DNA from: Phoronis australis
Taxonomy: Eukaryota; Animalia; Phoronida
Length of the DNA: 64,000 nt
Assembly (NCBI GenBank): GCA_002633005.1
Contig: NMRA01000248.1
Span: forward strand, 496,274-560,273
Direction of reading: 5' to 3'
Shown in pieces: positions 17,518 to 54,441 of the stretch; within the stretch, counting starts at the first letter, position 1; every line of letters starts with the position of its first letter. Position numbers and translations under genes: made by a program. The notes below the pieces were generated by a model. That model ran no database searches, was not told the DNA's origin, and saw only the letters and a list, made by a program, of their open reading frames with translations.

Positions 17518-20500
17518 CTACAAAAAGTTGGCATAAGTGTCAAACGACTGAATGAACTTCTCCGCCATATTGTACAACGAAGTGTATTGGTCCTGAAAAA
17601 ACAAAATACACAGGCTGAAAACAAAGTGTGGGCACAACGAAGACGAAGGAAAACAATAGTAAATAGTCCAGAAATTATTATTAGTACACTTGTAAGTTAT
17701 TATTCCATTCCCAGCTGTGGATTAAGTAACGATTCCCCAATTCTAAAAACAGAAAAGAAATCTCACGTTTGAATCTTCAAGTTCTTTGGATTGGCACAGG
17801 CCAGTCAAAGTTTCTTCAGAGATCACGCGAGACCACGAAAAATCGTTGGAAAGAAAGACAAGTGCTTCGGTAGTATGATCCAGACCCTATTAGCGTAAAC
17901 TAGTTAAATGGCAACCACTTGAGTGATTGGTCCCTGAGATTGGATTGTTAAATAATGAATTCATTAACTATGAAATTCACGGTTTCTGGTCCATAACAGA
18001 AGATGTCGCTGCCTGTGCAAAGTAATGTGAAGTATCTAAGGAATGCATCCTTGAACCAATCAAAGTTGGAGCCTCGACCACTCTCTGACAAGACACAGTC
18101 GAAACGTACTACGATGCACTGAAGTCACCGGCGGCCGGTTGTATGAAACAATCCCATATGGGGACTTTCCTACGTTCCTGAACTATTCGCCGCATTTGCG
18201 GACTTGGAGAAAACACTTATTGAACTTTCCAATGCTATTTTGTCTTCATCACTATGTCAATTTTAACTTGACACACACCGAAAGTTAACTCTATTCATGT
18301 AATTTCCCCACTTTAAAGACATTTTAGTAAAAGAAGAGCTCATAATAAAGACAAAGCCGTAGTATTTATTATAGTGACGTAGTGAAACATAGTATTTGTG
18401 GGTAAAAAAACACAGAAATGCACAGGAGATTTAGAAAAATATTAGCTGAGTGCCTACTTAGGACACTTTCCTGTAACAGAGCAAAAATGCTTTTAGAAAG
18501 TGACGTCATTAAACACTTGGTAATTTCTATAACACGGAGCAATAACACACAATCCATATCGGGAGGAACTTACCAAGTTGGTAATAAATTGCCATCTGAT
18601 GGCTCTGATGTTCTTCACAGTCTGGAATACGTCGACACCCTGTTCAACTTTGATCTTCTCAAACAGGTTGAAGAGAGCACACATGTATCCACTACGTGTA
18701 CAACCGTCACTGAAATGAAGCACTTGTTTAGACTTTATAGACACCCTGACATTCCAACCTCTTCACAGTACCCCGGTTATACAATTTTACCATTTTACCT
18801 CGGCTTCAAGGTCTTGGATATTTTGAAAGCAAAGGCACCAATGTGAATCAAAATAAAAACTAATTTTAATTGGTCTTTTAAGATTAATATACAATAAAAC
18901 AGCTACAAAACCGTCTTCTGTTACAAAAAGAAACTACGGTTCATGTCAGTATCTGACAGTTGTGAAACTCCTTATAAAACTGAAGGCGATTTCTGGTCTA
19001 AGGAAGTAATGACAATTCGTAATTGCTTCAGAAATGACACTAGGAGTTGCCTTGCCACAATAAGCGTCACTAACTGGCAACATGTTCCGGAACAAAAACG
19101 AACTGTAAGTTCTTTACTAGCCTAGAACCACTTCCTATCTCAGTTTCGAAACAGCCGAGATCTGAAAAGGTGGTTTCTGTGAAGGAAGGAGTATAACTGC
19201 TTTCACGCATTTCTAGATCCAAAATATTCTGTTTATGAGTACAAAAGTGTAGTTACACACAAACAATATGACAGTTGCGTTCTTCGCAGTTTGTTGCTAC
19301 GCCAGTTCCACAATCACGTGTCTTAACCTGTTGGTCAGATGGAATCGGCGAAGTCAATCATGTGCAGGCGTTTCTATATCCAACATGATTAGTTTGAGAA
19401 CTTACTATATTTACTTACAAACAATGTATTACGGCCGCGTTCTTCCCGGTTTTTCGCTGCGCCAGCTCCACAATTTCAATAAGTTCAATAAGCGCACTTT
19501 GTAGGTCCGATGGTGGCACAGCCAATTTGTTTGGCCAGTCTCTCAATTGAAAATGTTTAATTTCCCGAACTTCGCTGTTTTTCTGGAAGAAACAACTCAA
19601 AATGTGACTATGGTTTTGCTGTTCAAGAAGATAAATACATTCTCAAGTATTATAAATATTAAGGCGGTGCGTTCTTAGTTTTCCATTGTGTTCTTAGTGC
19701 TGTTCGTACGACTGCATTTGGTCGGAACCCTTCCGTCTTAGTCATCGGATGTCGCCCGATTAGCAAGCCCGTTAACTTACGACACATTGTGAAGTTTATC
19801 TGGCATTAGGTTTATTATTCATGACAGTCTAGAGGCAAACATACACTCATTACTTCCTGAAAGGAAAAAAAGCTCACGGACAACAGTGATGCTGGACCAT
19901 AAGACGTACGTTTTAAATAGAATGGAACATCAGGATTAAAGAGTCAAGATGTTAGTAGTGAGACCACTCAAACGAATGACGCTAGTGGTATACCCTATAT
20001 ATATATAGGATAGACCGATTAATGAATTTGCAAGTGTGGCATTGTCTGGGCAATACCTTATTAAGTTTTCAATTCAAGTCCTTTTTTCGAAGCTCATTTA
20101 TTTGAGAAAAGCTCATTTCAAATGAGAAGGTGTTCGCAGTGAACAAGTACACTTACCTTCCTAGCGTCAGTCAAAACTAGAGTTCGCTGCTCGATAACTT
20201 TGCCGTGGTGATACCTTGACTCAACACATTTCACTTCATAGCGTCCAAAGCGCACAGACTCTTCGTCCGGCCAGTATTGGGGACAAGTCTAAAATAGAGA
20301 GTCAACAGCAGCTGAGAAATGAAGCTACCCGGATGTCTGAGTGAAGATATCAAAATTATTTGTTCTACCGACAAATGAATGCATTCTGGAAACGCTGGTG
20401 GCAAGACTTCAAATCTCATTTTACCGATTGAAAAGGATACCAAGCCCTGTTTTTGGCCTACATGTATTAACATATATTAAAAACAACTTGTCTAATCCAA

Positions 20501-53000: not shown

Positions 53001-54441
53001 CAACAATTTGAATTTAAGAGGTTTTTATTTCGGTACGATTGGTATTTGATTGATCCGCCACCAAATGTCAAGCCCTACATGCAATCAATATTGGAATTGA
53101 CAGGCGTTCAGGTAGCATAATACATAAACCAGAATGCGCTATACGGTAGTTGATAGTGGATAAAGGTGTGATGCGGTTTTCTTACTATTTGTCAAGTTTG
53201 TCCCATACAATCATAGGTGAAGACCCTGACCAATGTATTATATCTACTCCTCGTGTAACCATTAGACAATGATGTCACGTTGCTTGATTTGCACTACTTG
53301 ATACAACCAACATCTTGCGTGAGGTCTGATATGAAGTTAGACACGCGGGTTTGACTGAACTGTTTAGCCACAGCAAATCGTCTGTTGGTTGGAGAGGTTC
53401 AAATTCGTCCATCTTTGATCGTTTTTCAGCTTTTGGTCTACCTGTTCTCACTCAGTTCCTCAAGTCACTTGGCGCTAACCGTAATGCCATATGTCTGCAC
53501 ATGTAGCACATTTGTTCACCATAAAAGTGTGTGCAACCTGACCATGCAGTTTTCAATAGCTGCTGTACGTTGAACAGGAGTCCGTGAAGGAACCAAGCTT
53601 TTATTTAATCGACATTACACAAAACTGTTATCAACACAACACACATTTGGAACTCATCTAGCATGAGAGTCTCAACAATTTCACCAAAGGTGGTGTTTAC
53701 AAGCAGTTCATATTACAATGATTAAATGTGCAAGTGGTGCATCTCAACACAAATTGATGTCAATTTGGAGCTTCACAGAACTTTAAAATGACTATTCCAG
53801 AAAACGAAATTGCCAAAAAATTTCAAATTCTGGTGTTTGACCCTTACATTTTTGATATCACACAATGTAATTTTATGTTTGAGTGTGCGAGAGGGTACTT
53901 GGAATGTTACCACGTTTCCGTAGACCTATTCTTAATTTAACATGTAATATACTTGAAAAGTTAACTTAATAAATTATGCACAACTTTGTTCGTATTGTGT
54001 TATACATACAAGAGCTACTGATGGCGCTAAGTAGAGGCAGTTATATGTTGTAAACCTAAGTATAGAAATTTTGCGACATATTATCTCGTGAAGGGAAATC
54101 ATTAGGTCAAACCAGCGATAACCTAAATGATGACCGAAGGAAAACGTACCCACCTTTTGAAATGGTAACTCTCGGAACGATCACCCACGAGTAGAGATTT
54201 TTCTTGTTAACTGTAAAGTAGTAAGCGGCGAACTCATCCTGTATTGTGTATCGCGAATAGGCATTAGGTCCCGTGCCTACGTTTCCGTTGGGTGCAGGGG
54301 CCAAAGTAGCACCACTCGACCCCATGTTCACGTGCACTCCGCTCTCTATGGCGTCTGTGCCGATGTGAACGTTACTTCCACCGTACACTCTGACGTCACC
54401 ACCATATAAAGACACCAGCACGCTGATATTGTATAGCGGTT
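17518..54441 (-). CDS. Receptor-type protein tyrosine phosphatase with Tie-like Ig/EGF/FN3 ectodomain plus kringle, and tandem PTP domains (5' end incomplete)
   Basis: Exons 5' to 3': 54441-54154, 52587-52354, 51886-51641, 49004-48873, 48158-48012, 47741-47610, 46889-46593, 46263-46202, 45944-45725, 43867-43559, 43169-42867, [42308-42091, 41970-41915, 41809-41624 defective cassette], 41102-40996, 40245-40071, 39383-39275, 36395-36128, 35166-35103, 33720-33615, 33137-33073, 31942-31773, 30975-30888, 30417-30304, 29839-29742, 28820-28698, 28199-28036, 27329-27194, 26608-26474, 25518-25419 (duplicates at 24860-24725, 24139-24005, 23023-22924), 21903-21827, 20875-20741, 20288-20157, 19582-19419, 18709-18574, 17592-17518. 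Omitting the cassette and one duplicate set gives 5111 nt in one open frame (about 1,700 aa). Confidence 0.9.
22869..27831. repeat. 2.5-kb near-identical tandem duplication (22869-25362 and 25364-27831) joined at an N
   Basis: The sequence and ORF track repeat almost exactly, with scattered SNPs and small indels; the junction is the single N at 25363. Confidence 0.97.
26474..30975 (-). CDS. RPTP membrane-proximal PTP domain D1 (catalytic motifs intact)
   Basis: [57 protein letters not shown] across 7 exons. Confidence 0.96.
30015..30149. mobile_element. GC-rich MITE-like element
   Basis: 13-bp TIR CATGGGCGGCGCA / TGCGCCGCCCATG; no clear TSD; a related terminus occurs at 1511. Confidence 0.7.
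33615..33720 (-). CDS. RPTP transmembrane exon
   Basis: [22 protein letters not shown] followed by basic RWRRR (continuing in exon 33137-33073); not in the ORF track. Confidence 0.9.
35103..46889 (-). CDS. RPTP fibronectin type III array (about 8 repeats including the membrane-proximal domain with an RKRR furin site)
   Basis: Repeated W..P / L.PY..Y...V.A patterns ([39 protein letters not shown]); membrane-proximal [17 protein letters not shown] as in other RPTPs. Confidence 0.9.
37023..37094. repeat. Short imperfect hairpin (MITE-like palindrome)
   Basis: AATCCTACACGAATCTCAGGTTTATGAC pairs with GTCTTAAACCTGAGACGAGTGAAGGATT around a loop of about 16 nt. Confidence 0.65.
41126..41322. repeat. 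71-bp degenerate minisatellite, about 2.7 copies
   Basis: TGAACA...CACGTGCAAGGTACATAAA units, with GAAC at 41137, 41208 and 41279. Confidence 0.8.
41624..41970 (-). pseudogene. Defective FN3 exons inside the RPTP gene
   Basis: Exon 41970-41915 is 56 nt (3n+1 needed) and reads VIT* in frame, while the expected [16 protein letters not shown] lies in another frame. Exon 41809-41624 is only 62 codons and ends at G|GCAAAG rather than GT. Confidence 0.55.
47610..49004 (-). CDS. RPTP three Tie-type EGF-like exons (49004-48873, 48158-48012, 47741-47610)
   Basis: [64 protein letters not shown]; all phase 1-1. Confidence 0.93.
47900..48026. repeat. 38-bp tandem repeat (about 3.3 copies) containing the EGF2 exon splice donor
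   Basis: CTTACCTTGA starts at 47931, 47969 and 48007 (period 38); an N lies at 47899. Confidence 0.92.
50868..51104 (-). mobile_element. tRNA-derived SINE
   Basis: The minus strand begins GGAGGCAGTGTGGCCTGGTTG (A box) ... GGTTCAAGTCC (B box), then a CCTTGAGC core-like motif, a 3' stem-loop GTCTGATACA-N3-TGTATCAGAC and a short A tail. It does not form a complete cloverleaf. Confidence 0.7.
51641..51886 (-). CDS. RPTP Ig-like exon (Tie Ig2-like)
   Basis: VKWQKDG...HGGVYTVY...GIFRLIVR resembles Tie Ig2 (DAGVY...FTRLIVR); phase 1-1. Confidence 0.88.
52354..52587 (-). CDS. RPTP kringle-domain exon
   Basis: [13 protein letters not shown]...[12 protein letters not shown]...ENYCRN...PWCYT...[10 protein letters not shown]: six cysteines plus the kringle motifs YRG, CQRW, NYCRN, PWCY; 234 nt, phase 1-1. 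Confidence 0.93.
54154..54441 (-). CDS. RPTP N-terminal Ig-like exon (Tie Ig1-like position)
   Basis: ttttttcag acceptor; [15 protein letters not shown]...[25 protein letters not shown]; phase 1-1 with a GTGGGT donor. The domain call rests on position and beta-strand pattern only. Confidence 0.7.

What the first reader, a model, noticed from the sequence alone, without database searches (positions are those of the whole stretch)
17518..54441. Tie/angiopoietin-receptor-like ectodomain coupled to a tandem tyrosine phosphatase instead of a kinase
Seen: the Ig-like exon ends FRLIVR and is followed by three EGF exons containing [20 protein letters not shown] and [10 protein letters not shown]. Then come FN3 repeats, a TM helix and PTP D1+D2, all in one spliceable frame. 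Known: Ig-Ig-EGF3 with RLIVR and [10 protein letters not shown] is characteristic of vertebrate Tie1/Tie2 receptor tyrosine kinases, and no vertebrate RPTP subtype (R1-R8) has this ectodomain. Inference: this is a receptor with a Tie-type sensing module and opposite catalytic output, possibly binding fibrinogen-domain (angiopoietin-like/FReD) ligands, which are expanded in invertebrates. Similar models may already exist as uncharacterised invertebrate annotations, so novelty is unverified.
Basis: partly seen in the sequence, partly recalled or inferred. Interest (0 to 1): 0.8.

Follow-up and report, generated by a model that had tools for sequence, protein, structure and literature searches.

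The report
Tie-headed receptor phosphatase with kringle insert
An invertebrate gene likely encodes one cell-surface receptor that joins the Ig-EGF head of the blood-vessel receptor Tie2, plus LCCL and kringle domains, to a predicted active tyrosine phosphatase instead of a kinase, so the Tie head is likely an old plug-in sensing module used with several different outputs; its ligand is untested.

Summary
Mostly confirmed, with corrections. The minus strand carries 38 AG/GT-bounded exons (59971-17518) in one 1883-aa frame with no start found: LCCL, an unassigned 95-aa exon, kringle, Ig, three EGF, seven FN3 (the last RPTP-specific), one TM, intact D1, degenerate D2. EGF1 and EGF2 match Tie2 best and in register, far above MEGF-type repeats. 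RNA joints are listed for 16 of 30 laid introns but none of the seven spanning the membrane, and many reads look paralogous. The Tie head is not vertebrate-specific: tunicates put it on MEGF repeats with no enzyme, and metagenome loci put LCCL, lectin and Tie-type EGFs on a short tail. EGF-bearing tandem RPTPs are published in snails. No paper on a Tie-type one turned up in 10 searches, but this scan already noted one in a feather star (unchecked). Angiopoietin/FReD binding is unsupported beyond a partial motif. Verdict: new variant of a known kind.

The parts
59902..59971 (-). LCCL domain, first exon (most 5' exon found; the start lies further up or is unrecognised)
   Evidence: C-P...C...WG..Y pattern, AG/GT, phase-0 join to the next exon; not covered by laid reads
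57632..57777 (-). LCCL domain, second exon
   Evidence: Pfam LCCL E 0.0016-0.0021, below the curated cut-off; matches the L006/L007 LCCL, 0 of 2000 shuffles; minus-strand reads
56836..56873 (-). 38-nt linker exon
   Evidence: RNA joint 54443-56838 of the predicted 2394-nt intron
54154..54441 (-). 95-aa cysteine-free exon at the Tie Ig1 position; identity not established
   Evidence: RNA joints on both sides; no Pfam, Atlas, pairwise, profile or fold support
52354..52587 (-). Kringle domain, phase 1-1 exon
   Evidence: Pfam PF00051 E 3.9e-19; 6 Cys; joint 52590-54157
51641..51886 (-). Ig domain of Tie Ig2 type, ending FRLIVR
   Evidence: Pfam Ig_2 E 0.007; z about 4 against the tunicate Ig2s; a profile with them aligns to Tie2 72-319, E 4e-45, driven mainly by the tunicate EGFs; alone finds no Tie2 in PDB
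47610..49004 (-). Three Tie-type EGF exons (49004-48873, 48158-48012, 47741-47610), 8 Cys each
   Evidence: Tie2 best PDB hit for EGF1 and EGF2; joints Ig-EGF1, EGF1-2, EGF2-3
40071..46889 (-). FN3 repeats 1-6 (nine exons)
   Evidence: Pfam fn3 above cut-off for repeats 3, 4, 5 and the second exon of 6; repeat 1 weak; repeat 2 no hit; five joints listed
36128..39383 (-). Membrane-proximal FN3 of RPTP type (exons 39383-39275, 36395-36128) with an RKRR furin-type site at 36355
   Evidence: Pfam Fn3_PTPRU E 3e-11, PTP_tm E 8e-6; motif; read cover
33615..35166 (-). Stalk exon (35166-35103) and the single TM exon (33720-33615)
   Evidence: Frame fit; top hydropathy peak; thin read cover only
31773..33137 (-). 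Juxtamembrane exons with a VYENL tyrosine motif (31865)
   Evidence: read cover
26474..30975 (-). PTP D1, seven exons: [17 protein letters not shown] and Q-loop intact
   Evidence: all six internal joints listed
17518..25518 (-). PTP D2, seven exons: WPN in place of WPD, altered signature; C-terminal YANFL then stop
22869..25362 (.). 97% copy of 25364-27831 (last two D1 exons and first D2 exon), joined at a single N; likely two alleles assembled in tandem
   Evidence: using both copies in series shifts the frame; reads over 26525 carry the second copy's base

Best explanation
These exons likely form one receptor-type tyrosine phosphatase, likely one of several paralogues, whose outer tip (LCCL, kringle and a Tie-type Ig-EGF3 module on seven FN3 repeats) is predicted to bind an extracellular partner and so to tune a predicted active D1 phosphatase. 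Shown: domain order, open frame, canonical splice sites, intact D1 motifs, expression and splicing of most ectodomain and D1 exons (in this gene or close copies). Inferred: it was built by exon shuffling, since all 12 domain borders from the 95-aa exon to FN3-6 are phase 1. An old LCCL plus Tie-type head was grafted onto an RPTP stalk, and a kringle was inserted where distant relatives carry C-type lectins. Inferred from known RPTPs: cleavage at RKRR, ligand-driven clustering that changes D1 access to substrate, D2 acting as a non-catalytic regulator, and the YENL and terminal YANF tyrosines docking SH2 adaptors, with Src-family kinases as likely substrates. The most likely role is surface recognition (non-self or matrix), as proposed for the snail MEGF RPTPs, with the ligand chosen by the variable tip rather than by a conserved angiopoietin site.
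For: One frame over 38 AG/GT exons with one TM. The last FN3 is an RPTP-specific domain on the outer side of the TM. Joints for 10 of 17 introns (9 of exact predicted length, 1 approximate) and 6 of 13 further introns; bins over the unjoined exons have reads, nearly all from the minus strand. D1 motifs intact. Reads with D1 ends unlike the window (loose end at 27332, extra letters at 28189) point to expressed paralogues. The head is modular elsewhere: tunicate Tie head plus MEGF repeats with no enzyme domain; Atlas cluster of 59 mostly echinoderm proteins at score 0.96 with Ig_Tie2_1 in 12%; LCCL-lectin-Tie-type EGF-TM-short tail in metagenome loci, with the LCCL split at the same site and phase as here. 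Snail MEGF/GBD tandem RPTPs are expanded and tied to parasite resistance (PMC12297450, PMC13712769, passages).
Against: None of the seven introns from FN3-6 to D1 appears among the listed joints (tables cut: 22 and 14 rows hidden). Reads are mostly 90-95% alike, so they may come from paralogues or divergent alleles. No start exon found. D1 has KNRF rather than KNRY, which could lower activity (recalled). PTP subtype unresolved: best PDB hits were PTPRA, PTPRG and PTPRS for three different exons. No ligand, tissue or immune data. The Ig2-like part of L006/L007 is not significantly like the window's Ig, so their link rests on LCCL and EGF only. No full-length Tie-head PTP homologue was retrieved.
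Confidence: 0.55

Rival explanations
1. One reading: a counter-receptor that binds angiopoietin-like fibrinogen-domain (FReD) ligands at its Ig, as Tie2 does, and opposes a Tie-like kinase that binds the same ligand.
For: The Ig ends like Tie2 Ig2 and precedes Tie-type EGFs. Angiopoietins bind Tie2 Ig2 through a fibrinogen domain (PMC8294587, passages). By eye the Phe161-equivalent motif is kept (window 51803). Tie kinases exist in non-vertebrate deuterostomes (PMC4898815, passages).
Against: Pro166 and the RHE loop are not kept (by eye). The Ig alone does not retrieve Tie2. A kringle sits directly before the Ig and could alter the Ig1-Ig2-EGF packing (inference). No FReD or Tie kinase of this genome could be examined.
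Confidence: 0.18
2. It is a developmental adhesion or matrix receptor working like R2B/R2A RPTPs: a furin-cleaved rigid spacer that dephosphorylates junction proteins. The Tie-like and kringle parts are structural.
For: PTPRU-type last FN3 with RKRR; long FN3 stalk; R2B receptors act as junction spacer clamps (PMC7959691, passages).
Against: No MAM domain. D1 exons score higher on R4/R2A than on PTPRM/K, though two-domain PDB constructs inflate the scores. Paralogous reads fit a diversified family better.
Confidence: 0.18
3. The ectodomain and the phosphatase are separate transcripts (a Tie-head receptor or secreted protein next to a PTP gene), or the locus is mis-assembled.
For: No listed joint across seven consecutive introns around the TM; PTP exons are read deeper than the TM exons. 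The assembly has a haplotype-like duplication and several Ns. Enzyme-less Tie-head receptors exist.
Against: Frame, phases and splice sites fit throughout. The RPTP-specific FN3 lies on the ectodomain side. No N lies between 47899 and 25363. Paralogous reads explain the deeper PTP cover.
Confidence: 0.07
4. The EGFs are ordinary MEGF/SCARF repeats, so this is simply another mollusc-type MEGF RPTP.
For: [quoted passage not shown]
Against: Alignment score of EGF2 against Tie-type EGF2s is 115-167, against five MEGF-type segments of the same tunicate protein 29-44. BLAST 156 bits against the Tie module, at most 82 against MEGF stretches. PDB ranks Tie2 far above SCARF1.
Confidence: 0.02

Closest known systems
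Tie1/Tie2 (TEK) receptor tyrosine kinases; PDB 2GY5, 4K0V
   Same: Ig followed by three in-register EGF modules, then FN3 repeats and one TM (domain order in PMC8294587, passages).
   Different: Tandem PTP in place of the kinase; LCCL and kringle added; Ig1 unproven; Ig3 absent; seven FN3 instead of three; angiopoietin contact residues only partly kept.
Molluscan MEGF/GBD receptor PTPs (Biomphalaria SudRes1, PMC12297450; subgroup 1C, PMC13712769; passages seen)
   Same: EGF-bearing ectodomain, single TM, tandem PTP domains, paralogous family, proposed recognition role.
   Different: There a galactose-binding head sits on MEGF repeats; here LCCL, kringle, Ig, exactly three Tie-type EGFs and an FN3 stalk ending in the PTPRU-type FN3.
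Vertebrate tandem RPTPs R2A, R2B, R4 (PTPRS/F, PTPRM/K/U, PTPRA/E)
   Same: Active-type D1 plus degenerate D2; PTPRU-type last FN3 with a basic cleavage motif; a terminal tyrosine motif that from recall resembles the PTPRA Tyr789 site (role of Y789 in PMC7959691, passages).
   Different: No MAM, no triple-Ig head, no short glycosylated ectodomain; subtype unresolved; the PDB search with the last exon found nothing.
Tunicate Tie-head proteins (Ciona savignyi H2Z3R8; Clavelina lepadiformis LOC143465312) and metagenome loci L001-L007
   Same: Tie-type EGF triplet; Ig2 in tunicates; LCCL with the same intron site in L006.
   Different: No phosphatase: MEGF repeats and an enzyme-less tail in Clavelina; C-type lectin insert and a short tail ending SERL in the loci.

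Membership tests
Tandem-domain receptor PTP | Single TM followed by two PTP domains | tested here: met
Tandem-domain receptor PTP | D1 with WPD, CX5R and Q-loop; D2 degenerate | tested here: met
   KNRF variant noted
Tandem-domain receptor PTP | Ectodomain and PTP on one transcript | tested here: inconclusive
   16 of 30 laid introns listed; none of the seven around the TM
Tandem-domain receptor PTP | Phosphatase activity | not testable with these tools
   Needs an assay
Tie receptor tyrosine kinases | Cytoplasmic tyrosine kinase domain | tested here: not met
   PTP domains follow the TM
Tie receptor tyrosine kinases | Three Tie-type EGF modules after Ig2 | tested here: met
Tie receptor tyrosine kinases | Ig1 directly before Ig2 | tested here: not met
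   A kringle intervenes; the preceding exon is not shown to be Ig1
Tie receptor tyrosine kinases | Ig3 after the EGFs, then three FN3 | tested here: not met
   The exon after EGF3 gives only FN3-like hits; seven FN3
Tie receptor tyrosine kinases | Angiopoietin-binding strand (Phe161, Pro166) | tested here: inconclusive
   By-eye comparison: Phe likely kept, Pro not; Ig model unusable, pLDDT 42
R2B RPTP | MAM-Ig-4xFN3 ectodomain | tested here: not met
   No MAM among the exons scanned; only the PTPRU-type FN3 is shared
R4 RPTP | Short ectodomain; D1/D2 grouping with PTPRA/E | tested here: inconclusive
   Ectodomain long (not met); PTPRA best for one exon of three, no tree possible
Molluscan MEGF/GBD RPTP | Galactose-binding head on multiple MEGF repeats | tested here: not met
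   No such head; EGFs are Tie-type

The most novel reading that the evidence does not exclude
LCCL plus the Tie Ig-EGF3 head is an ancient animal recognition module with a slot for swappable binding domains (kringle, C-type lectin) and swappable outputs (kinase, tandem phosphatase, short motif tail). Vertebrate Tie1/Tie2 would be the trimmed remnant, and invertebrates would run Tie-headed kinase/phosphatase on-off pairs on shared fibrinogen-domain ligands, giving the expanded invertebrate FReDs a receptor family.
Probability: 0.2. Interest if true: 0.8.

Novelty: new variant of a known kind. Interest (0 to 1): 0.52.

Why it matters
If it holds, the Tie sensing head predates its vertebrate kinase partnership and is reused with opposite enzymes and different inserted binding domains. 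That reframes the origin of angiopoietin-Tie signalling and offers testable candidate receptors for invertebrate fibrinogen-related proteins. It also adds an ectodomain class to receptor phosphatases. The design principle itself (an EGF head on a tandem PTP in invertebrates) is already published for snails, which limits the surprise.

Tried and rejected
No whole genome is held, so paralogues, FReDs and Tie kinases of the species could not be counted. Homologue searches: the Ig exon gave 0 hits among 25 candidates; a D1 exon was sent one base out of frame by my slip, so its 0 of 44 means nothing; EGF2 gave 2 of 2, both tunicate. The HMMER library search with the Ig exon gave 16 multi-stretch, low-identity hits that I judged to be repeat noise from the table alone and did not use. 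Atlas: nothing for the 95-aa exon. Both folds were unusable (pLDDT 32 and 42), so no fold search was run. No co-fold was run, for lack of a ligand sequence from this organism. PDB: the Ig exon, last exon and LCCL exon (repeat noise only) gave nothing useful. The 95-aa exon as Tie Ig1 is unsupported. The duplicated D1/D2 exons as a real third half-domain are rejected (frameshift in series, N at the join). Candidate exons at 57509, 55775, 55534 and 55216 were dropped: RNA skips straight from 56836 to 54441. No RNA holder was listed by index; the raw runs came by species label. L008 and L009 were dropped as spurious. The organism of L006 is not named, and the window's phylum remains unknown. Papers: 10 searches listed none describing a Tie-headed PTP; most listings were judged by title and abstract start only. 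The sea-urchin phosphatase survey PMC3045532 is not held; from recall it names urchin-specific RPTP classes and may already include this design. Supplements of PMC12297450 and PMC13712769 were not opened and could list such architectures.

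
Full report
Observation. The cited motifs are on the minus strand. Snapping candidate exons to splice sites gave 38 exons from 59971 to 17518, all bounded by AG/GT, in one frame of 1883 codons with one hydrophobic helix and a single terminal stop. No start or signal exon was found up to the window's end. The order is LCCL (two exons; Pfam E about 0.002, under cut-off), a 38-nt linker, a 95-aa cysteine-free exon, a kringle (E 3.9e-19), an Ig, three 8-Cys EGF modules, seven FN3 repeats, stalk, TM, juxtamembrane, D1 and D2. 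The last FN3 matches RPTP-specific families (Fn3_PTPRU E 3e-11, PTP_tm E 8e-6) and holds RKRR. D1 keeps [13 protein letters not shown] and the Q-loop, with KNRF; D2 has WPN and an altered signature; the protein ends YANFL. All 12 domain borders from the 95-aa exon to FN3-6 are phase 1, the usual mark of exon shuffling (PMC5336234, passages).

One gene? Four runs with the same species label were laid on two stretches. Reads over exons are almost all from the minus strand. Joints were listed for 10 of the 17 model introns (9 of exactly the predicted length once inserted letters are counted, 1 approximate), among them linker to 95-aa exon, 95-aa exon to kringle, Ig to EGF1 and EGF1-2-3. One search listed 6 of 13 further introns, all inside D1. 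None of the seven introns from FN3-6 to the first D1 exon was listed; both tables were cut (22 and 14 rows hidden), and the bins holding those exons have thin to moderate cover (0 to 5.4). Most laid reads are 90-95% alike (1874 of 2749 in X1, repeats included), and some D1 reads end in other sequence, so divergent alleles or paralogues are expressed. Of 54 listed exonic differences that I picked from the shown rows, 30 are third, 15 first and 9 second codon positions. A single transcript is therefore likely (about 0.9) but not shown. The 2.47-kb tandem copy at 22869-27831 is 97% identical, joined at one N, and would shift the frame if used twice; it is likely an assembly of two alleles.

Is the head Tie-like? 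EGF1 and EGF2 each hit Tie2 first and in register among PDB sequences (E 3.5e-12 and 1.4e-6), ahead of SCARF1 at 1.6e-5. As a control, EGF2 scores 115-167 against four other Tie-type EGF2s and 29-44 against five MEGF-type segments. The Ig alone does not find Tie2. It matches tunicate Ig2s at z about 4 (2 and 4 of 1000 shuffles), and a profile with these aligns to Tie2 from the end of Ig1 through the EGFs. The 95-aa exon sits where Ig1 would, but five tests gave no support. There is no Ig3. So the shared unit is Ig2-EGF3, not Ig-Ig-EGF3-Ig.

Relatives. The EGF2 search returned 2 proteins, both tunicate. The Clavelina one has a Tie head, MEGF repeats, a TM and no enzyme domain. Its head matches an Atlas cluster of 59 mostly echinoderm proteins at 0.96. 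A metagenome scan gave 9 loci; 7 encode a Tie-type EGF2 in two AT-rich, short-intron eukaryotes, likely small animals, phylum not determined. In the two loci read far enough upstream (L006, L007), an LCCL precedes C-type lectin domains and the EGFs. In L003 and L006 a TM and a short tail ending SERL follow. No PTP match was found in any of the 9. Their LCCL resembles the window's (0 of 2000 shuffles), and in L006 it is split at the same site in phase 0 and ends in phase 2, as here. Their Ig1-like pieces weakly match the tunicate Ig1 (1, 15 and 65 of 2000), while their Ig2-like pieces match nothing significantly. I infer that LCCL plus the Tie-type EGFs is an old pairing, and that kringle and lectin are alternative inserts. 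I retrieved no second Tie-headed PTP myself. An unchecked note of this scan reports such genes in a feather star (e1-10649695), and another a Tie-like pseudokinase in cephalopods.

Mechanism. Most likely (0.55) a ligand-tuned receptor phosphatase for surface recognition. Inferred from known RPTPs: cleavage at RKRR, clustering that changes D1 access, D2 as regulator, and YENL and the terminal YANF as SH2 docking sites. PTPRA activates Src and docks Grb2 at its tail (PMC7959691, passages); that the window's tail resembles it is recalled, and a PDB search did not confirm it. The subtype is open, since three exons ranked PTPRA, PTPRG and PTPRS first. The FReD idea (0.18) has the right domain and, by eye, the Phe161 motif, but not Pro166, which is also dominant for angiopoietin binding (PMC8294587, passages). 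Other rivals: junction spacer (0.18), separate genes (0.07), plain MEGF (0.02).

Novelty. It is a tandem RPTP by the tested sequence features and not a Tie family member. EGF-headed tandem RPTPs are published in snails (PMC12297450, PMC13712769; passages), and Tie kinases are known in non-vertebrate deuterostomes (PMC4898815; passages). PMC11788884 and PMC8870065 (passages) added nothing. Ten searches listed no paper on a Tie-headed PTP, but the library lacks most subscription papers and the sea-urchin survey could not be read. Verdict: new variant of a known kind, interest 0.52.

Noticed in passing
window 6347-14946 (+): Multi-exon SLC1/EAAT-type transporter gene (Pfam SDF E 9e-24 to 1e-13), tail to tail with the phosphatase gene, with a 323-N gap at 12710-13032.
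   Followed up: partly
window 22869-27831: 2.47-kb tandem duplication, 97% identical, joined at one N (25363); likely two alleles assembled in series; may break automatic gene models.
   Followed up: yes
L006 7440-10504; L007 1357-4096; L003 1-630: Apparently undescribed receptor: signal peptide, LCCL, C-type lectin domain(s), Tie-type EGF triplet, TM and a short tail ending in a tyrosine plus SERL motif kept in two species; no enzyme domain.
   Followed up: partly
P0018 (Clavelina LOC143465312): Tie-type Ig-Ig-EGF3 head joined to MEGF-type repeats and an enzyme-less tail.
   Followed up: partly
window 27332 and 28189: RNA reads with other sequence at D1 exon ends indicate expressed paralogues or strongly divergent alleles.
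   Followed up: no
window 50540-51206, 43870-45200, 58400-58450, 25660-25700, 36980-37500: Intronic repeats with read depth on both strands, highest at 50540-51206.
   Followed up: no
window 47900-48027 and 41120-41312: Short local repeats next to the EGF2 donor and upstream of the FN3-6 acceptor; possible alternative splice sites.
   Followed up: no
L006 11598-12500: Intronless EI24-family gene downstream of the lectin-Tie receptor.
   Followed up: partly
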